Program-made: the position numbers and the translations under genes
Part shown: positions 34,738 to 43,374 of the stretch, one piece after another
Layout of the letters: each line of letters begins with the position of its first letter
Position numbering within the stretch: position 1 is the stretch's first letter
The notes under the pieces: model-generated
What the model saw: the letters and a program-made list of their open reading frames with translations, nothing else
What the model was told of the DNA's origin: nothing
Database searches by the model: none
From: Promethearchaeota archaeon
GTDB lineage: Archaea > Asgardarchaeota > Lokiarchaeia > Sigyniarchaeales > SOKP01
Reading direction: 5' to 3'
NCBI GenBank assembly: GCA_048941265.1
Contig: JBHLNT010000007.1
Location: 1 to 64,000, forward strand
Length of the DNA stretch: 64,000 nucleotides

Positions 34738-35268
34738 TTAAGTAATTTTTTTTTCCAATATCCCCTCTGTTAATTTCTGAAAAATAAGTTGATTATTTTC
34801 ACCTGATTTAGATGAGGTTTCAAAGAAGTAATCAATTTTAAACTTATCTTGAAATTGTTTTACATCGTTAAAATCAATAACTCTTCTATCAGCTAAATCT
34901 AACTTACAACCTACTAATACAAACACAGGATTGGCAGCATTATCTCTCACAATATTATACCATTCAATTAAATTCTCGAAACTATGATATCTGGTAATAT
35001 CATAGCAAAGAACACAACCCAATGCTCCTCGAGCATAATTTGGTAAGAAAAACCGAAATCGCTTCTCTCCAGCAAAATCCCATATTTGTAATTTCGCAGA
35101 ACCTTTATCTCCCATATCAATTTGGATAGAGGCTAAGTCTGTCCCTATCGTAATTTTTTGAGGTATAAATAGTCCTGTTGTTAGTCTTTTAACCATTGTC
35201 GATTTTCCTACACCACCATCACCGACAACAATTACCTTAAACAGCAATTGTCGAGACATTGTACTCAT
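34738..35268 (-). CDS. Rab/Ras-like small GTPase
   Basis: FKVIVVGDGGVGKST, TIG, LQIWDFAGE, GCKLD, ETSSK; no C-terminal prenylation Cys. Confidence 0.92.
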   Translation of the reverse strand: MSTMSRQLLFKVIVVGDGGVGKSTMVKRLTTGLFIPQKITIGTDLASIQIDMGDKGSAKLQIWDFAGEKRFRFFLPNYARGALGCVLCYDITRYHSFENLIEWYNIVRDNAANPVFVLVGCKLDLADRRVIDFNDVKQFQDKFKIDYFFETSSKSGENNQLIFQKLTEGILEKKIT

Positions 35269-36275: not shown

Positions 36276-36674
36276 TCAAACATTTTCGGATGATAATTTA
36301 CCAATATAATTTACAGAGGTTCTTTTTTTCCCGATTTTTGTGAATTTAAATTGAATTTTTTTTCTAATCTCTCGACTATAGAGTGCTGTGATCAATAAAA
36401 CAATAGCAAGAAGAATTACTAATAAATAAAGTTGAAAGTATAACAAAATAATTAAAATAATGATTTGTATCCCTACTAAAAAACTATAGATTCTTAATAA
36501 GAAGTTCATAAAAAATCTAGTATATACAAATAATCCCTTTTTATAATGATTAATATTTAGAGCTTTAAGTTCGGATTCAATATGTTTCTGAGCTTTTATC
36601 TCTCCATCTGAACCTGGTAAAAGAGGAAAAGAGAGTTTTTTTACAAATTCTTCACAAGCGAATCTATTATTCAT
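36276..36674 (-). pseudogene. N-terminal fragment of a membrane M28-family peptidase
   Basis: LSFPLLPGSDGEIKAQKHIESEL resembles the M28 N-terminal (R-x-x-GS/T-x-GE-x-x-A) motif; two TMs; SVNYIGKL; stops before any AHxD catalytic motif. Confidence 0.6.
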
Positions 36675-36796
36675 ATTAACATATTGCCTGTTTTTTTTTT
36701 TAAAAATAATCTTAATAATTAAACTTTTATAGTCCTTATTAATTTATAAAGGGTCAATCAGCTAATATATTATAATCAAATTTAACGTAAAATACT

Positions 36797-38983
36797 ATGA
36801 AATTTTGTCCCGACTGTCAAAATCTTTTATATCCTATGAAAAAAGGTCTATATTGTAAATTTTGCCATAATTTTTTTAACAATAAAGATGGTAATTTAAA
36901 AGAAGAAGTAAAAAGCATAACTATTAATAAAAGTAAACTTAATATGAATGATTTATCGAGCGAAATAAAAGGTAAAAAAAAAAATAATATAAAATTACCT
37001 AAAAATATGAATTATTTACATTTCTTTCCTTACGAGCAATTTAGAGAATCCCAGGAAAATATTATTAAAGAGATTGAAATAAACGCAAGGTCTAAAAAGA
37101 TTGTTTTATTAGTCGCCCCAAATGGTACTGGAAAAACTATTATTGCTTTAAGTAGTCTTCTTCCCCTTGCTATTGAAAATGATCTGAAAATAGTCTATCT
37201 TTGCCGTACCCATTCTCAAAATACAAGAGTTATCAAAGAATTAATTAAAATTTCAAATTTTATTAATTTGAACGAAATAAAGGGTGCCAAAATAAATGGA
37301 TTGTCAATAAGGGGAAGAAATGAAATGTGTCTAAATAAAACATTATTATCGTTGAAATTAAATCCTCGGGAATCAATGGCCGTTTGCAGAGACTTAAGAA
37401 AAAACAGAAATTGCACTTATTTTTTGAATTTATTGAAAAAAAGGGATGAATTTGACAAACCTGTACTAATAGCTCCAAAACTTTTTGAAAATCCCATTGA
37501 TGCTGAAGATCTTATTAATTTTTGTAACAATAATAAGATCTGTCCTTATTTTTTATCTAAATTCCTTTTAGAAGAAATGAGAGTAATTATTTGTAATTAT
37601 AATTGGATTTTTAATCCGTTTATACGAGAGTCTTTTTTAAAATTTATAGGGCGCGAAATTGATAAATGTATTTTAGTAATTGATGAGTGTCATAATATTA
37701 TTGATGTGGCAACGGATGTTAATTCAGAAAGAATAACACCATATTCATTAAGAATTTGTTTGAAAGATTTAGAAATGTATCAATCCCCTGTCTTAATGCA
37801 AAGTTTCGTTAATATCTTATATGATCACCTTAATAAAAAGAAAGAAGTTTTAAAAATAGAGGAAAAGGCAATAGTTCCAGACATTCTTTTAGAAAAAATG
37901 TATAAAAAGCTTGGTTTAGCCGATTTAAACGAATTTGAAAATTTTATTAAAGATCTACACGAGTTTAGCATAGCAATCCACGAGGAAAAACTAGCCAATG
38001 GTGAAATTTCGAGAGATTTTGTAGGGGCATTAGCAGAATTTTGGTTAAAATGGATTAAAGTTTATTCATTAGAGAATTATTTTTTTTGTTATAATATCCA
38101 AAAATTAAAAGAAAAAGCTAATATAGCAATTGAAATAGTTGCATTAGATCCCAGGGAAATTGCCATACCGATTTTGAAAAATTGTTATTCCTGTTTAAAT
38201 CTTTCCGGAACAGTTAATCCATATGTTTTTAATAATTTAATGGGTTTACATGAAAGTGGGAAGGGTTTTAAAGGAATTATTGCAGATTCACCATTTAAAA
38301 AGCAAAATATCAAAGCAATTATTACCGAAGGTGTAGATACTAAAAGAGAAAGTAGAAATACTCATATGTATAAAAAGATGATAAATAAAATCAATGAGGT
38401 TTTATATTGTACCCCCGCTAATGTCGGCATATTTTGCGCCTCATATAAAATTTTAAAGGGTTTGCTTGAAAATGATCTTGAAATCACAGTACAGAAAAAT
38501 AATAAAAAATTGTTTGTTGAAGAACCTGGATTATCTGCTTCAGAAAATGCTTTTTTAGTAAATGATTTTAAATCAATGGCTAGTAATCATGAAAATGGCG
38601 CTGTTTTATTAGGAGTATGTGGGGGAAGGAATTCTGAGGGTGAAGATTATCCCGGAGATTTTATGAACTCCGTAATCATCGCTGGATTTCCATATCATTT
38701 ACCAACTCCTCGGGTCAATGCAAAAATAGAATATTATGATAGGGTTTTTAATAAACAGGGCTGGAATTTTGCTTATTTATATCCTGCCGTACAACGGGCA
38801 AATCAAGCGTCTGGTCGACCAATAAGAAAAATAGTTGACAAGGGTGCAATTATTTTCATGGATTCCCGATTTAAAGATAAACATAAATGGATCTCTGAAT
38901 GGATTCGAAAAGAGTTAGAAATTGTTCCCGATAAGCAGAATGCGATTATTCAACATTTATATCCATTTTGGAATTCTAGTTAA
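36797..38983 (+). CDS. xpd: XPD/Rad3 FeS-cluster DNA helicase with N-terminal zinc ribbon
   Basis: FPYEQFRESQ, APNGTGKT, four FeS Cys (MCL, VCR, NCTY, ICPY), DECH, SGT, SEGEDY, QASGRPIR. Confidence 0.93.
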   Translation: MKFCPDCQNLLYPMKKGLYCKFCHNFFNNKDGNLKEEVKSITINKSKLNMNDLSSEIKGKKKNNIKLPKNMNYLHFFPYEQFRESQENIIKEIEINARSKKIVLLVAPNGTGKTIIALSSLLPLAIENDLKIVYLCRTHSQNTRVIKELIKISNFINLNEIKGAKINGLSIRGRNEMCLNKTLLSLKLNPRESMAVCRDLRKNRNCTYFLNLLKKRDEFDKPVLIAPKLFENPIDAEDLINFCNNNKICPYFLSKFLLEEMRVIICNYNWIFNPFIRESFLKFIGREIDKCILVIDECHNIIDVATDVNSERITPYSLRICLKDLEMYQSPVLMQSFVNILYDHLNKKKEVLKIEEKAIVPDILLEKMYKKLGLADLNEFENFIKDLHEFSIAIHEEKLANGEISRDFVGALAEFWLKWIKVYSLENYFFCYNIQKLKEKANIAIEIVALDPREIAIPILKNCYSCLNLSGTVNPYVFNNLMGLHESGKGFKGIIADSPFKKQNIKAIITEGVDTKRESRNTHMYKKMINKINEVLYCTPANVGIFCASYKILKGLLENDLEITVQKNNKKLFVEEPGLSASENAFLVNDFKSMASNHENGAVLLGVCGGRNSEGEDYPGDFMNSVIIAGFPYHLPTPRVNAKIEYYDRVFNKQGWNFAYLYPAVQRANQASGRPIRKIVDKGAIIFMDSRFKDKHKWISEWIRKELEIVPDKQNAIIQHLYPFWNSS

Positions 38984-40968: not shown

Positions 40969-42171
40969 ATGTGTGATACCTTTGTTAGTTTAGCAACAAC
41001 TTCAAAAGATAATACTGTAATTTTTGGTAAGAATAGTGATAGACTTAGTACTGAAGCTCAATTAATTACCTATGTTCCTCGAACTAAATATTCAAAGGGA
41101 GAAGAAGTTCAGTGCACTCATATAAACATTCCCCAAGTAGATGAAACCGCCGCAATTTTAATGAGTCAGCCGTATTGGATGTATGGGTGTGAAATGGGAG
41201 TTAATGAACATGGTGTAGCAATCGGTAATGAAGCAGTCGCTACTAAAGAGCCACTTAGACAAATAGGGCTTCTGGGAATGGATTTATTGAGACTTGGTTT
41301 AGAAAGAGGAAAGACAGCAAAAAATGCCTTAGAGATTATTATTAACTTATTAGAAAAATATGGACAAGGAGGGGCTCATAATAAAAAAGGATTAAACTAT
41401 CATAATTCTATGATTATCGCAGATCCTAAGGAAGCTTATGTTCTAGAAACAGCTGGAGAATGGTGGATTGTAGAGATTGTCAATGATTATCGTTCTATTT
41501 CAAATAATTTATCAATTCGGGGAAAGGGTGATATTCGAAAAAAAGGCATAATCCAACATGCAATAGAGAAAGGTTACTGTAAAGATGATAATGATTTTAA
41601 CTTCAAAATTATATTTTCTTCTTCTCCTTTATCTGAAATTTTTCCATTAGATAGTAGAGATGGGTGTTCATTAAACCAGCTGGCCCAAAATAAAGGTAGC
41701 ATAACACCTGGAATGATGATGAATTTTTTGAGAGAACATGATGTTGGAATATGCATGCATGGTCGAAGTGATCGATCAGTAGGATCCCAAGTATCCCATT
41801 TGAGAAAAAATAAACCGTCTATTCATTGGTTTACGGGCAGTACCATCCCTTGCCTTGGTATATTTAAACCGTATATCTTCCCAATTGGAGAAGAAAAGGT
41901 TTTAAAACCGGGGCCATATGCAAACATAAATCCAGAGTGGTTTTGGAGTCGGCATGATAATTTTGTAAAAGATCTCGCTAAAAAACCTAAAATGAATAAA
42001 CCTGAAAGAAATATCTATTATGAAAAGCTTAGAAACGTTGAAAATGATATAATAGAGAGGGTTGATGCAGTTATTCAGAAAGAAGATTCCTTATCAAATA
42101 GGGGGTTCATAGATAAAATTAAAGAGATCAATGAAGAAGCATGGAAAAAGTCAGAAGAGATGATTGAATAA
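40969..42171 (+). CDS. Secernin/C69 dipeptidase family Ntn hydrolase
   Basis: N-terminal MCDTFV, FGKNSDR, EMGVNEHGVAIGNEA, GMDLLRLGLERG. Confidence 0.92.
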   Translation: MCDTFVSLATTSKDNTVIFGKNSDRLSTEAQLITYVPRTKYSKGEEVQCTHINIPQVDETAAILMSQPYWMYGCEMGVNEHGVAIGNEAVATKEPLRQIGLLGMDLLRLGLERGKTAKNALEIIINLLEKYGQGGAHNKKGLNYHNSMIIADPKEAYVLETAGEWWIVEIVNDYRSISNNLSIRGKGDIRKKGIIQHAIEKGYCKDDNDFNFKIIFSSSPLSEIFPLDSRDGCSLNQLAQNKGSITPGMMMNFLREHDVGICMHGRSDRSVGSQVSHLRKNKPSIHWFTGSTIPCLGIFKPYIFPIGEEKVLKPGPYANINPEWFWSRHDNFVKDLAKKPKMNKPERNIYYEKLRNVENDIIERVDAVIQKEDSLSNRGFIDKIKEINEEAWKKSEEMIE

Positions 42172-43374
42172 TTGTGTGATACGTTTGTAGCATTATCCAA
42201 TTCAACAAAAGATAACAGTGTTATTTTTGGAAAGAATAGCGACAGACCTCATAATGAAGTACAATTAATAACCTATATTCCAAGGAGGAAATATGCTAAG
42301 AGTGAAGAATTACATTGTACATATATTTCAATTCCACAAGTATATGAAACTTTTGAAATTCTTTTAAGCCAACCTTGGTGGATGTGGGGAGCAGAAATGG
42401 GAGTGAATGAGCATGGTGTTGCCATTGGAAATGAAGCTGTATATTCTCATGAACCTATTAGAAGTATTGGTCTGTTAGGTATGGATATATTAAGGTTAGG
42501 ATTAGAACGAGGAAAAACAGCTAGGAATTCACTTACAATAATGACGGATTTATTAGAAAAATATCACCAAGGAGGAGGATGTGCTTTTAATGATTCCAGT
42601 TGGATTTATCATAATTCATATATCATCGCAGATACGAGTGAAGCTTATGTTTTAGAAACAGCTGATGATTGGTGGATTGCTGAACGAGTAGAAAGTGTAA
42701 GGTCAATATCTAATGAGATCTCTATAAGAGGAAAAGGAGAACTCAGAAGAGAAGGTATAATCCAACATGCCATAGACCAAGGATATTGCAAAGATGACAA
42801 TGATTTTGACTTTGCCCTAACTTTTACAGGTTCTTACCATCCTGAAGAACCTTCTCCTTATTCTAGAGGGGGTAAATCAACAATATTACTAAGAGAAAAC
42901 AAAAAAAAAATTACCCCTAAACTGATGATGGAATTTTTACGAGAGCATGATGCTGGAATTTGTATGCATGGAGGATTTGAGTCTACAAGTTCTCAAGTTT
43001 CTCATTTAAGGAAAGATAAAAATTCAATTCATTGGTTTACAGGCAGTACCCTTCCATGTTTAAGTGTATATAAGCCTTATGTATTTCCTATCGAGGATCA
43101 AAGAGTTCTTGAGCCGGCCCCTTATTCAAAAATAAATCCTGAATGGTTCTGGTGCAAACATACTTCGGCTGTAGCATCATTTAAAGGATGGAGTATAATA
43201 TCCGAAAAGAAAATGTATTTGAAAAATCTAAAAACATTAGAAAATGAAATAATTTGTAAAGTGGATGAGACTATATTAAATGAAAATAATATTTCGGGTG
43301 AAGATTTTAAAAATAAAATTAAGTCGATCAACTTAAACTCATGGGAGAAATCTAAAGAGTTGATTAATTTATAA
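42172..43374 (+). CDS. Secernin/C69 dipeptidase (tandem paralog, TTG start)
   Basis: Same motifs as the upstream copy; starts immediately after its stop codon. Confidence 0.92.
   Translation: MCDTFVALSNSTKDNSVIFGKNSDRPHNEVQLITYIPRRKYAKSEELHCTYISIPQVYETFEILLSQPWWMWGAEMGVNEHGVAIGNEAVYSHEPIRSIGLLGMDILRLGLERGKTARNSLTIMTDLLEKYHQGGGCAFNDSSWIYHNSYIIADTSEAYVLETADDWWIAERVESVRSISNEISIRGKGELRREGIIQHAIDQGYCKDDNDFDFALTFTGSYHPEEPSPYSRGGKSTILLRENKKKITPKLMMEFLREHDAGICMHGGFESTSSQVSHLRKDKNSIHWFTGSTLPCLSVYKPYVFPIEDQRVLEPAPYSKINPEWFWCKHTSAVASFKGWSIISEKKMYLKNLKTLENEIICKVDETILNENNISGEDFKNKIKSINLNSWEKSKELINL

What the first reader, a model, noticed from the sequence alone, without database searches (positions are those of the whole stretch)
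36797..38983. XPD helicase fused to an Rpb9/TFS-like N-terminal zinc ribbon: possible RNA-polymerase-tethered helicase
Seen: the XPD ORF begins MKFCPDCQNLLYPMKKGLYCKFCHNFF, then a ~40-aa K/N-rich linker before the Q-motif. Known: M-x-FCPxCxNxLYP...LxCxxC is the typical N-terminal ribbon of RpoM/TFS, Rpb9, C11 and A12, which docks on RNA polymerase. Characterised archaeal XPDs start near the Q-motif. Inference: this helicase may be recruited to RNAP, as an archaeal transcription-coupled repair factor or a TFIIH-like precursor.
Basis: partly seen in the sequence, partly recalled or inferred. Interest (0 to 1): 0.75.

Follow-up and report, generated by a model that had tools for sequence, protein, structure and literature searches.

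The report
XPD helicase with TFS/Rpb9-type zinc ribbon
The only XPD repair helicase of this Lokiarchaeial genome carries, on a floppy tether, a small zinc ribbon of the kind that transcription factor S and Rpb9 use to sit on RNA polymerase, which suggests but does not prove that the helicase is held at the polymerase.

Summary
ORF 36797..38983 (+, 728 aa) is the genome's only XPD/Rad3 iron-sulfur helicase. It starts with a C4 zinc ribbon (aa 1-26, folded to about aa 36). A disordered, poorly conserved linker follows to about aa 72.

The ribbon is not a generic one. Its best Pfam family is Zn_ribbon_RPB9, matched by 40 of 44 orthologous ribbons. The window's own copy scores 21-22.6 bits, under the 25.2 cut-off. 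A profile of the ribbons finds TFS4/RpoM-2, solved on archaeal RNA polymerase, as the best PDB match (E 9.6e-7).

In 41 related genomes XPD was the only helicase-sized protein carrying this ribbon type. Its nearest relative is the ribbon of an uncharacterised ~84-aa Lokiarchaeial family that looks like TFS without its C-terminal ribbon.

The fusion is confined to one Lokiarchaeial family. It is seen in 17 full-length genes plus 4 fragmentary or frameshifted ones among about 135 genomes, and it was lost repeatedly. The ribbon is under purifying selection (dN/dS 0.26).

Docking on RNA polymerase is a reasonable inference and remains untested. The 'TFIIH precursor' reading is weakened by the narrow, patchy distribution.

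The parts
36797..38983 (+). Whole gene: zinc ribbon, linker and XPD/Rad3 helicase, 728 aa plus stop
   Evidence: ORF list. Pfam and NCBIfam. It is the only DEAD_2 match in the genome.
36797..36904 (+). N-terminal C4 zinc ribbon domain. Cysteines C4, C7, C20, C23 with 12 residues between the two CxxC knuckles; beta strands reach to about aa 36.
   Evidence: PF02150 is the best Pfam hit at 21-22.6 bits, under the 25.2 cut-off. The ribbon profile hits 7oqy_Y TFS4 at E 9.6e-7. AF2 pLDDT is 73-79, with strands at 10-14, 17-20, 26-30 and 33-36. dN/dS is 0.26.
36905..37012 (+). Flexible linker, aa 37-72: predicted disordered, poorly conserved, variable in length among orthologues
   Evidence: AF2 pLDDT is under 50 for aa 37-72. 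Mean identity to orthologues is 21%, against 58% for the ribbon and 74% for the core. Length runs 27-63 aa and net charge -6 to +12. dN/dS is 0.64.
37007..37009 (+). Internal ATG (M71), at the position where ribbon-less orthologues start. A ribbon-less isoform from here is possible but untested.
   Evidence: Sequence. Ribbon-less orthologues have ATG, ATA or ATT at this codon, whereas ribbon-bearing L016-L018 have ATA or ATT with no GGTG upstream.
37013..38980 (+). XPD helicase core, aa 73-728: HD1 with the 4Fe-4S domain, Arch/HBB domain and HD2
   Evidence: DEAD_2 134-316, HBB 335-517, Helicase_C_2 534-705. TIGR00604 is over its cut-off. Foldseek TMt is 0.85-0.88 to T. acidophilum XPD.
37115..37138 (+). 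Walker A motif, APNGTGKT (aa 107-114)
   Evidence: Translation. P108, N109, G110, G112 and K113 are invariant in 73 aligned homologues.
37328..37543 (+). Stretch holding the four invariant cysteines C178, C197, C206 and C249. I read these as the 4Fe-4S ligands; that assignment comes from recalled knowledge of XPD.
   Evidence: All four are invariant columns in alignment A2. They lie inside the DEAD_2 match.
37682..37693 (+). DEAH-box (Walker B) motif, DECH (aa 296-299)
   Evidence: D296, E297 and H299 are invariant and C298 nearly so.

Best explanation
Architecture, shown here. This is an intact XPD/Rad3 5'-3' iron-sulfur helicase and the only one in the genome. It has acquired at its N-terminus a small C4 zinc ribbon of the TFS/Rpb9 N-ribbon class, joined to the helicase by a disordered tether of about 35-45 residues.

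Origin, shown in part. The ribbon is a near-copy of the ribbon of a Lokiarchaeial ~84-aa protein family. That family consists of a TFS-like N-ribbon and linker plus an acidic-aromatic tail, without the TFIIS-type C-ribbon. The fusion arose within one Lokiarchaeial family and was later lost several times.

Function, inferred. The ribbon acts as a docking module that plugs into the groove between the upper jaw (Rpo1'') and the lobe (Rpo2) of RNA polymerase. That is where the N-ribbon of TFS4 sits in the solved archaeal complex. Archaeal polymerase has no resident Rpb9 there, so the site is free. The tether would then keep XPD within reach of the downstream DNA of a transcribing or stalled polymerase. 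The result would be a built-in link between transcription and XPD-dependent damage verification or unwinding, without a separate coupling factor.
For: Architecture.

Ribbon class:
- 40 of 44 orthologous ribbons match PF02150 at E <= 0.01, the best at 1.5e-8.
- Two orthologous fusions pass the Pfam cut-off in genomic scans: G155 at 32.1 bits and G170 at 29.3 bits.
- The ribbon profile's best PDB hit is 7oqy_Y (RpoM-2/TFS4) at E 9.6e-7. Plant RPB9 chains 8hil_I and 7eu0_I follow at 2e-3 and 3e-3.
- In the alignment TFS4 has the same 12-residue spacing between knuckles as 41 of 46 XPD ribbons.
- Foldseek's top hit for the ribbon model is again 7oqy_Y (TMq 0.70, rmsd 0.9 over 28 residues). That hit is not significant on its own (E 0.62).
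- ESM Atlas nearest named clusters for aa 1-40 are PF02150/TFS proteins at score 0.89. This is a lead only.

Specificity:
- Of 118 PF02150 matches in 41 family genomes, only XPD (3 matches) and one 295-aa frame exceed 160 aa.
- In 1.84 billion representative proteins the ribbon profile found XPD N-terminal fragments, the ~84-aa family, a few TFS and unrelated multi-finger arrays. It found no other large single-ribbon fusion.

Donor family: the XPD-ribbon HMM scores 18 of 18 full-length ~84-aa proteins at 41-54.5 bits. XPD's own ribbon scores 57.7 and the TFS N-ribbons of the same genomes about 10-16 bits. The ~84-aa protein matches TFS_arch model positions 1-55 at 33.8 bits.

Selection: ribbon dN/dS is 0.26, linker 0.64, core 0.11. 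The four cysteines plus M1, F3 and L11 are invariant.
Against: No result here shows binding to RNA polymerase.

The window's own ribbon is below the Pfam gathering score (21-22.6 against 25.2 bits). Its structural matches have non-significant E-values.

The XPD and ~84-aa ribbons are clearly diverged from the TFS N-ribbons of the same genomes, which score only about 10-16 bits against the XPD-ribbon HMM. They may therefore have a different partner.

The fusion looks dispensable:
- Within genus g1, 4 of the 8 XPD loci fetched lack it at the same chromosomal position.
- On a tree of 90 helicase cores the ribbon state changes at least 6 times on well-supported branches, and 10 times by parsimony.
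- Most genomes of the family have ribbon-less XPD.

The linker after the XPD ribbon does not resemble the TFS linker, which in TFS4 adds strands to the jaw. The match to TFS_arch is only 18 bits.

Gene neighbours give no hint of transcription or repair.
Confidence: 0.4

Rival explanations
1. The ribbon is a docking or nucleic-acid-binding module for something other than RNA polymerase. Candidates are DNA or RNA, or the still unknown partner of the ~84-aa family. The resemblance to the Rpb9/TFS N-ribbon would then reflect common descent and not a shared binding site.
For: The XPD ribbon groups with the uncharacterised ~84-aa family (41-54.5 bits) and not with bona fide TFS (about 10-16 bits). 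That family has no assigned function: its members carry 'hypothetical protein' or an automatic 'subunit M/TFIIS' name. Other zinc ribbons also appear among the weak matches, namely yfgJ at E 1.6e-3 and NudC and TiaS.
Against: PF02150 is by far the commonest family match: 40 of 44 ribbons, against 24 for the next family. The single clearly significant PDB hit is an RNAP-bound N-ribbon. The ~84-aa family also keeps the TFS-like linker (TFS_arch positions 1-55), which in TFS4 contacts the jaw.
Confidence: 0.3
2. The ribbon acts in cis. It folds back on the helicase, for example on the Arch or FeS domain, as an autoregulatory or DNA-clamping element, and recruits nothing.
For: Accessory zinc modules that regulate helicases are common; this is general knowledge and was not tested here. 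No partner was identified here.
Against: The 27-63-aa linker is poorly conserved and predicted disordered. The ribbon is predicted with the same confidence alone (pLDDT 79.1) as in the full-length model (73-79). Both points fit an independent tethered domain. Ribbon-less orthologues are 76-77% identical over the aligned part in the same genus, which shows no adaptation of the core to losing the ribbon.
Confidence: 0.12
3. The fusion is a nearly neutral accident. A duplicated copy of the ~84-aa gene's ribbon landed in front of XPD and is now on its way out, with no present function.
For: The state is patchy and repeatedly lost. In genus g1 an in-situ indel removed the ribbon together with the neighbouring 132-aa ORF. 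G154 carries a frameshift inside the ribbon at a poly-A run; this could also be an assembly error.
Against: The ribbon evolves under purifying selection (dN/dS 0.26 against 0.64 for the adjoining linker). All zinc ligands and three hydrophobic positions are invariant across 44 ribbons that are as little as 37% identical. The fusion persists in five genera.
Confidence: 0.12
4. Annotation artefact: translation really starts at the internal ATG (M71, 37007) and the ribbon is untranslated leader.
For: Ribbon-less orthologues start at exactly this codon, and in the window it is an ATG.
Against: There is no stop between ribbon and helicase in 17 full-length genomic copies. Conservation at the amino-acid level and dN/dS well below 1 are not expected of a leader. 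Ribbon-bearing relatives L016-L018 have ATA or ATT at that codon and no GGTG upstream. An additional short isoform from M71 is not excluded.
Confidence: 0.03

Closest known systems
N-terminal zinc ribbon (ZR-N) of archaeal TFS/TFS4 and of eukaryotic Rpb9, A12.2 and C11 (Pfam PF02150)
   Same: C4 ribbon at the very N-terminus, opening M-x-F-C-P-x-C-x-N-x-L-Y-P. The spacing between knuckles is 12 residues, as in TFS4. This is the best sequence-profile and fold match.
   Different: It is not followed by the TFIIS-type C-terminal ribbon that defines TFS, Rpb9, A12 and C11; a helicase follows instead. The window copy is under the Pfam cut-off. Binding to the polymerase was not shown.
Uncharacterised ~84-aa Lokiarchaeial 'TFS-N-only' family (two copies in this genome, L002 and L003)
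   Same: The ribbon is nearly identical, at 41-54.5 bits against the XPD-ribbon HMM. The cysteine spacing is the same in 115 of 116 members. Its range covers this Lokiarchaeial family plus weaker matches in related families.
   Different: It is a free-standing protein. A TFS-like linker and a conserved acidic tail motif, R[KRE]A[YFH]E[ED][FYL]F, follow the ribbon in 112 of 120 members. It is present whether or not XPD carries the ribbon: G168 and G174 have ribbon-less XPD yet hold the small protein.
Archaeal XPD (T. acidophilum, S. acidocaldarius) and eukaryotic XPD/Rad3 of TFIIH
   Same: Same four-domain FeS helicase with all motifs intact.
   Different: Solved XPDs begin close to the helicase core. 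Human residue 8 aligns to query 73 and T. acidophilum residue 7 to query 103. None of them aligns to query aa 1-72. Eukaryotic XPD reaches Pol II through the multi-subunit TFIIH complex, not through a domain of its own (recalled knowledge).
Bacterial repair helicases and translocases that bind RNA polymerase directly (Mfd, UvrD); named from recalled knowledge, not searched here
   Same: The proposed logic is the same: a repair motor carries its own RNA-polymerase-binding module.
   Different: The folds and docking sites are unrelated, and there is no sequence relationship. The analogy is functional only and is untested for this protein.

Membership tests
XPD/Rad3 family of SF2 iron-sulfur helicases | Family models matched above the curated cut-offs | tested here: met
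   TIGR00604 rad3 scores 296.2 bits against 246.95. DEAD_2 scores 107.4, HBB 56.1 and Helicase_C_2 121.4 bits, all over their cut-offs.
XPD/Rad3 family of SF2 iron-sulfur helicases | Walker A, DEAH box and four cysteines in the FeS-domain insertion | tested here: met
   APNGTGKT at 107-114, DECH at 296-299 and C178, C197, C206, C249 are invariant or nearly so in 73 homologues. Their assignment as FeS ligands is by recalled analogy.
XPD/Rad3 family of SF2 iron-sulfur helicases | Four-domain XPD fold | tested here: met
   The AF2 model has pLDDT 80.8. Foldseek to 9p55, 5h8w and 4a15 gives E 7e-38 to 2e-35 and TMt 0.85-0.88.
Zn_ribbon_RPB9 (PF02150): N-ribbon of TFS, Rpb9, A12, C11 | Score at or above the Pfam gathering threshold (25.2 bits) | tested here: not met
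   The window copy scores 17.3 bits in the whole protein, 21.0 for aa 1-68 and 22.6 for aa 1-35. Some orthologous fusions do pass: G155 at 32.1 and G170 at 29.3 bits. 40 of 44 match at E <= 0.01.
Zn_ribbon_RPB9 (PF02150): N-ribbon of TFS, Rpb9, A12, C11 | C4 ribbon at the extreme N-terminus with the M-x-F-C-x-x-C...L signature | tested here: met
   M1, F3, C4, C7, L11, C20 and C23 are invariant in 44 ribbons. They align to TFS4 residues 1-24 and to plant RPB9 residues 4-32.
Zn_ribbon_RPB9 (PF02150): N-ribbon of TFS, Rpb9, A12, C11 | Ribbon fold superposable on solved ZR-N domains | tested here: inconclusive
   The ribbon model has pLDDT 79. The top Foldseek hit is 7oqy_Y (TMq 0.70, rmsd 0.9 over 28 residues), and most of the top 50 are chain I of Pol I, II and III. 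However, no hit reaches E <= 0.001; the best is 0.62.
Zn_ribbon_RPB9 (PF02150): N-ribbon of TFS, Rpb9, A12, C11 | Docks between the jaw and the lobe of the RNA polymerase | not testable with these tools
   The site is known for TFS4 from passages read in PMC8448823. Whether this ribbon binds there needs biochemistry or a structure.
Transcription factor S / Rpb9-like proteins (whole-protein membership) | C-terminal TFIIS-type zinc ribbon (PF01096) with an acidic hairpin | tested here: not met
   No PF01096 match appears in the 728-aa protein. The genome's two true TFS proteins do have it, at 65.0 and 54.4 bits. The protein is therefore not a TFS or Rpb9 homologue as a whole; only the ribbon is shared.
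TFIIH-like complex | Presence of partner subunits (XPB, p44/Ssl1 and others) in the same genome | tested here: inconclusive
   There is no match to TIGR00603 (XPB) or DUF790 (Bax1) in the 91%-complete genome. Two vWA+RING proteins match Ssl1 at 41.3 and 37.1 bits in hmmscan (42.9 and 38.6 in the genome scan), but the generic VWA_2 scores higher at 58.7 and 53.4. No complex can be inferred.

The most novel reading that the evidence does not exclude
The fusion is a 'Rosetta stone'. In Lokiarchaeia, XPD works at RNA polymerase, docked in the vacant Rpb9 site between jaw and lobe. Where the ribbon is fused the link is covalent. In the many relatives with ribbon-less XPD, the free ~84-aa 'TFS-N-only' protein would be the adaptor. 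Its ribbon and linker would hold the polymerase, and its conserved acidic-aromatic tail would hold XPD or another repair factor. That would be the first direct transcription-repair coupling device described in archaea with eukaryote-type NER proteins. It would also be a simple analogue of the way TFIIH is brought to stalled Pol II.
Probability: 0.12. Interest if true: 0.8.

Novelty: new variant of a known kind. Interest (0 to 1): 0.55.

Why it matters
Passages read in one review (PMC7690668) state that no nucleotide-excision-repair pathway has been explicitly defined in archaea. They also report that deleting XPB, XPD and XPF in Thermococcus gives only slight UV sensitivity. What archaeal XPD does, and with whom, is therefore open.

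A natural fusion of XPD to the polymerase-docking ribbon of TFS/Rpb9 yields a concrete hypothesis: XPD acts at RNA polymerase, at the jaw-lobe groove. It can be tested with a 40-residue peptide.

The work also brings to light an uncharacterised small protein family with the same ribbon, which may occupy the same site.

The fusion does not bear on the origin of TFIIH. It is a late, lineage-restricted and often lost feature of one Lokiarchaeial family.

Tried and rejected
Complex prediction. I sent Rpo1'' (29-row alignment), Rpo2 residues 1-450 (27 rows) and XPD residues 1-60 (45 rows). The ipSAE scores were 0.20 and 0.23, under the 0.32 mark, and the controls were not run. The verdict was 'no answer', so this counts neither for nor against binding.

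Expression. No RNA holder was listed for window 36500-37500.

Split-gene idea. I looked for a separate ribbon ORF within 1.2 kb upstream of ribbon-less XPD genes. None was found in 25 of 25 loci. Apparent N-terminal extensions read through stops in G273 and G150 also showed no ribbon.

Operon context. The window neighbours are an MFS transporter, an FrhB-like protein, a Ras-family GTPase, two membrane ORFs, a glycogen-synthase-like transferase and two C69 peptidases; none is informative. The ORFs directly downstream of the two ~84-aa genes are not homologous to each other, and their other neighbours are unrelated.

Literature.
- 'XPD', 'Asgard', 'zinc ribbon': 44 papers held at least two of the three terms; none of the 15 listed held all three.
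- 'XPD', 'Thermoplasma acidophilum', 'long form': no paper.
- 'transcription-coupled repair', 'archaea', 'XPD', 'RNA polymerase': 29 papers, 12 listed. None of the listed titles or abstract starts describes a ribbon-XPD fusion.
- 'Rpb9', 'transcription-coupled repair', 'Zn1': I saw the listing only and did not use it.
I found no description of this fusion in these searches. The residue-level TFS4-RNAP contact list (Supplementary Fig. 7 of PMC8448823) could have allowed a residue-by-residue comparison, and I did not see it.

Single versus multiple origin. HMM scores for XPD-type ribbons (56-69 bits) overlap those for the ~84-aa family (40-60 bits). The profile was built from XPD ribbons, so this cannot settle the question. 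A post-ribbon h-x-x-G-x-h motif occurs in 22 of 46 XPD forms against 1 of 116 small proteins. That favours one origin but does not prove it.

Limits of the counts.
- Tree: 30 of the 120 homologues were dropped because they were N-truncated gene calls or lacked the FFPY anchor. FastTree supports are local, with no bootstrap.
- dN/dS: pairs with dS outside 0.05-3 were dropped, and only 24 core pairs remained. Pairs of kin are not independent.
Full report
WHAT IS THERE

Counting on that translation:
- The four ribbon cysteines are C4, C7, C20 and C23.
- An internal methionine, M71, is encoded at 37007-37009.
- The conserved FFPY that precedes the Q-motif lies at aa 76-79.
- Walker A (APNGTGKT) is at aa 107-114 and the DEAH box (DECH) at aa 296-299.
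- Four further cysteines (C178, C197, C206, C249) are invariant in an alignment of 73 homologues.

The helicase part is XPD:
- Pfam finds DEAD_2 (8e-31), HBB (5e-15) and Helicase_C_2 (5.3e-35).
- NCBIfam TIGR00604 'rad3' scores 296 bits, over its 247-bit cut-off.
- An AF2 model (pLDDT 80.8) matches T. acidophilum XPD at TMt 0.85-0.88 and also human and yeast TFIIH XPD.
- A scan of the whole 5.0-Mb, 91%-complete assembly with DEAD_2 finds only this gene. It is therefore the organism's sole XPD as far as the assembly shows.

By sequence, human XPD residue 8 aligns to query residue 73 and T. acidophilum XPD residue 7 to query residue 103. About 70 N-terminal residues have no counterpart in solved XPDs.

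THE RIBBON IS REAL AND TRANSLATED

Of the 120 best homologues returned (493 had E <= 0.001 among 8000 scored candidates), the N-termini fall into three groups:
- 46 carry the same ribbon.
- 46 have the FFPY anchor within their first 43 residues and no ribbon.
- 28 are N-truncated gene calls.

Across 44 distinct ribbons M1, F3, C4, C7, L11, C20 and C23 are invariant, and P5 and K21 nearly so. Mean identity to the window protein is 58% for the ribbon, 21% for the linker and 74% for the core.

Summed NG86 dN/dS over pairs of ribbon-bearing genes is 0.26 for the ribbon (76 pairs), 0.64 for the linker (71 pairs) and 0.11 for the start of the core (24 pairs). Pairs with dS outside 0.05-3 were dropped, and pairs of kin are not independent.

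AF2 gives the ribbon pLDDT 73-79 with four short strands up to aa 36, and under 50 for aa 37-72. Alone, the ribbon folds with pLDDT 79. The linker varies from 27 to 63 aa and from -6 to +12 in net charge. The K/N richness in the window is therefore not a conserved trait. The picture is an independent zinc module on a flexible tether.

WHAT KIND OF RIBBON

- The window copy's best Pfam family is Zn_ribbon_RPB9 (PF02150). It scores 21.0 bits for aa 1-68 and 22.6 for aa 1-35, under the 25.2 cut-off.
- At family level the signal is clear. 40 of 44 ribbons match PF02150 at E <= 0.01 (best 1.5e-8); the next family, Zn_ribbon_6, is matched by 24.
- A profile of the 44 ribbons searched against all PDB sequences finds 7oqy_Y first, 'DNA-directed RNA polymerase subunit M (RpoM-2)', at E 9.6e-7. 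Its N-ribbon aligns to profile positions 1-24. YfgJ follows at 1.6e-3 and two plant RPB9 chains at 1.9e-3 and 3e-3.
- Entry 7oqy is titled as TFS4 bound to the archaeal RNA polymerase.
- Foldseek with the ribbon-only model again ranks 7oqy_Y first (TMq 0.70, rmsd 0.9 over 28 residues). Most of the top 50 are chain I (Rpb9/A12/C11) of Pol I, II and III. No E-value is significant, as expected for 35 residues; the best is 0.62.
- ESM Atlas features for aa 1-40 point to small archaeal PF02150 proteins and TFS at score 0.89. This is a lead only.

IS IT A GENERIC LOKI RIBBON? NO.

In the window's own genome PF02150 passes its cut-off in four places, and the XPD ribbon ranks fifth. Two of the four are true TFS proteins (112 and 117 aa, each with a TFIIS-type C-ribbon). 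The other two are ~84-aa proteins.

Across 41 genomes of the same family there are 118 matches at E <= 0.001. Only four lie in open frames over 160 aa: three XPDs (729, 732 and 717 aa) and one 295-aa frame.

The ribbon profile run against 1.84 billion representative proteins gives 82 hits at E <= 0.001. I inspected 12 of them. They were contig-end fragments of XPD N-termini, the ~84-aa family and TFS. The long proteins in the hit list match in 3 to 15 separate stretches of the profile's C-terminal half. No other large protein with a single such ribbon appeared.

WHERE THE RIBBON CAME FROM

An HMM of the XPD ribbons scores the ribbons of 18 of 18 full-length ~84-aa proteins at 41-54.5 bits. That is nearly as high as XPD's own (57.7). 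TFS N-ribbons from the same loci score about 10-16 bits.

Both groups have 12 residues between the two CxxC knuckles: 41 of 46 XPD forms and 115 of 116 small proteins. TFS4 has the same spacing in the alignment.

The small family has these properties:
- It has 205 members at E <= 0.001. Every organism name shown is an Asgard archaeal MAG (Lokiarchaeota/Promethearchaeota and a few Hodarch-, Hermodarch- or Thorarchaeota labels). The proteins are called 'hypothetical' or given the automatic name 'subunit M/TFIIS'.
- It matches TFS_arch model positions 1-55, that is ribbon plus linker, at 33.8 bits.
- It lacks the C-ribbon.
- It ends in a conserved acidic-aromatic motif in 112 of 120 members.

XPD therefore carries a copy of this family's ribbon.

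DISTRIBUTION AND HISTORY

XPD itself was found in 358 of 400 Asgard genomes searched. The ribbon profile finds XPD-sized open frames (717-753 aa) in 17 genomes among the 150 listed of 201 matches. All 17 belong to the window's family, spread over five genera.

Four further cases are incomplete:
- Three are contig-end fragments with XPD-type scores: G243, G230 and G152. The G243 fragment was verified to run into FFPY.
- G154 has a copy with a frameshift inside the ribbon at a poly-A run. It may be real or an assembly error.

The family holds 134 genomes plus the window's own. Outside it, listed XPD matches begin at query position 62-72, and listed ribbon matches lie in small frames.

On a FastTree of 90 helicase cores (46 with and 44 without the ribbon; 30 truncated rows dropped) the two states are interleaved. 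Parsimony needs 10 changes, and well-supported branches force at least 6.

In genus g1 the four ribbon-less loci share the flanking 292-aa membrane-protein gene with the ribbon-bearing ones. Three of the four also show the glycogen-synthase-like gene. They lack both the ribbon-linker segment and the adjacent 132-aa ORF, which is present in 4 of 4 ribbon loci and 0 of 4 ribbon-less loci. That is one indel at an orthologous locus.

No separate ribbon ORF lies within 1.2 kb upstream of any of 25 ribbon-less genes.

The simplest history is one gain within this family followed by several losses. A post-ribbon motif shared by 22 of 46 XPD forms and only 1 of 116 small proteins favours a single gain.

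HOW IT MOST LIKELY WORKS

Shown: an intact XPD with a tethered, selected zinc ribbon of the TFS/Rpb9 N-ribbon class.

Known from passages read in PMC8448823:
- The first part of its linker adds strands to the jaw.
- Rpb9, A12 and C11 are the stably bound eukaryotic paralogues.

Inferred: the XPD ribbon uses the same groove. This genome would then have five proteins able to occupy it, namely two TFS, two ~84-aa proteins and XPD. The 35-45-residue tether would keep the helicase near the downstream DNA of a transcribing or stalled polymerase.

I put this at about 0.4. Against it:
- Nothing here shows binding.
- The ribbon has diverged from the genome's own TFS ribbons.
- The XPD linker does not resemble the TFS linker.
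- The fusion is evidently dispensable in most relatives.

The rivals are a different partner or nucleic-acid binding (0.3), a cis-regulatory role (0.12), a decaying neutral fusion (0.12) and a wrong start (0.03).

COMPARISON AND NOVELTY

As a whole protein this is a member of the XPD/Rad3 family; all tested features are met. It is not a TFS or Rpb9 family member, because it has no TFIIS-type C-ribbon. Only the N-ribbon is shared.

The 'TFIIH precursor' idea is not favoured:
- The fusion is young and narrow in distribution.
- The genome gave no match to the XPB (TIGR00603) or Bax1 (DUF790) models.
- Its two vWA+RING proteins match Ssl1 less well than the generic VWA_2 family.

My literature searches turned up no description of a ribbon-XPD fusion. 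I rate it a new variant of a known kind.

WHY IT MATTERS

Passages read in PMC7690668 state that no NER pathway has been explicitly defined in archaea, and that XPB, XPD and XPF deletions in Thermococcus cause only slight UV sensitivity. A fusion that points XPD at RNA polymerase is a cheap, testable lead.

WHAT GAVE NO ANSWER

- The one complex-prediction job returned no verdict.
- No RNA run was listed.

Noticed in passing
L002:1330-1581 (-) and L003:1333-1584 (-), which are G000 contigs C84 and C120: An uncharacterised ~84-aa Lokiarchaeial family. It has a TFS-like N-ribbon and linker, no TFIIS C-ribbon, and a conserved acidic-aromatic tail (R[KRE]A[YFH]E[ED][FYL]F in 112 of 120 members). 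The genome holds two copies. Matches to the ribbon profile occur in 125 of 134 family genomes, nearly all listed ones in frames of this size. It may compete with TFS for the polymerase or act as an adaptor.
   Followed up: partly
L023-L044 except L037: 21 ribbon-less XPD loci, from the best-scoring genomes outside genus g1: These XPD genes have no ATG, GTG or TTG before the Q-motif. At the codon where others start, 19 have ATA, 1 has ATT and 1 has ATG. It usually lies 7-8 nt after a GGTG. This looks like a conserved non-canonical ATA start, and it explains the many 620-630-aa truncated gene calls in public data.
   Followed up: partly
window 36276..36674 (-): This 132-aa membrane-like ORF has no Pfam match. 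It lies directly upstream of XPD and co-varies with the ribbon in genus g1: present in 4 of 4 ribbon-bearing loci and absent from 4 of 4 ribbon-less loci. A single indel probably took or brought both.
   Followed up: partly
L149:1453-2658 (+) and L150:1468-2652 (+), which are G000 contigs C258 and C302: Two paralogous ~400-aa proteins carry an N-terminal vWA domain and C-terminal RING/PHD-like fingers. They match Ssl1 (TFIIH p44) at 41.3 and 37.1 bits, and one matches Tfb4 weakly. The generic VWA_2 scores higher. The architecture recalls p44/p34, but membership is not shown.
   Followed up: partly
G000, whole genome: No match to the XPB model TIGR00603 or to Bax1 (DUF790) in the 91%-complete assembly, although both models hit Haloferax, Sulfolobus and Methanosarcina controls. 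XPD may work without XPB here, or XPB may be unassembled or too divergent.
   Followed up: no
L151 (G154:C309:900-1900): A ribbon-XPD gene whose ribbon is split by a frameshift at a run of A between the two CxxC knuckles. This is either an assembly error or a snapshot of ribbon decay.
   Followed up: no
window 34738..35268 (-), and L003:372-860 (+): Ras-family small GTPases (Ras 130 and 126 bits). One lies two genes upstream of XPD and another next to one of the ~84-aa genes. This is probably coincidence.
   Followed up: no
window 40969..43374 (+): Two tandem 400-aa paralogues with weak Peptidase_C69 matches.
   Followed up: no
PDB entry 9p55: The best structural match is a 2026 entry titled 'DNA-free long form XPD from Thermoplasma acidophilum'. 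Its residue 36 aligns to query 89, so its extra N-terminal residues are not a ribbon counterpart. No paper on it was found.
   Followed up: partly
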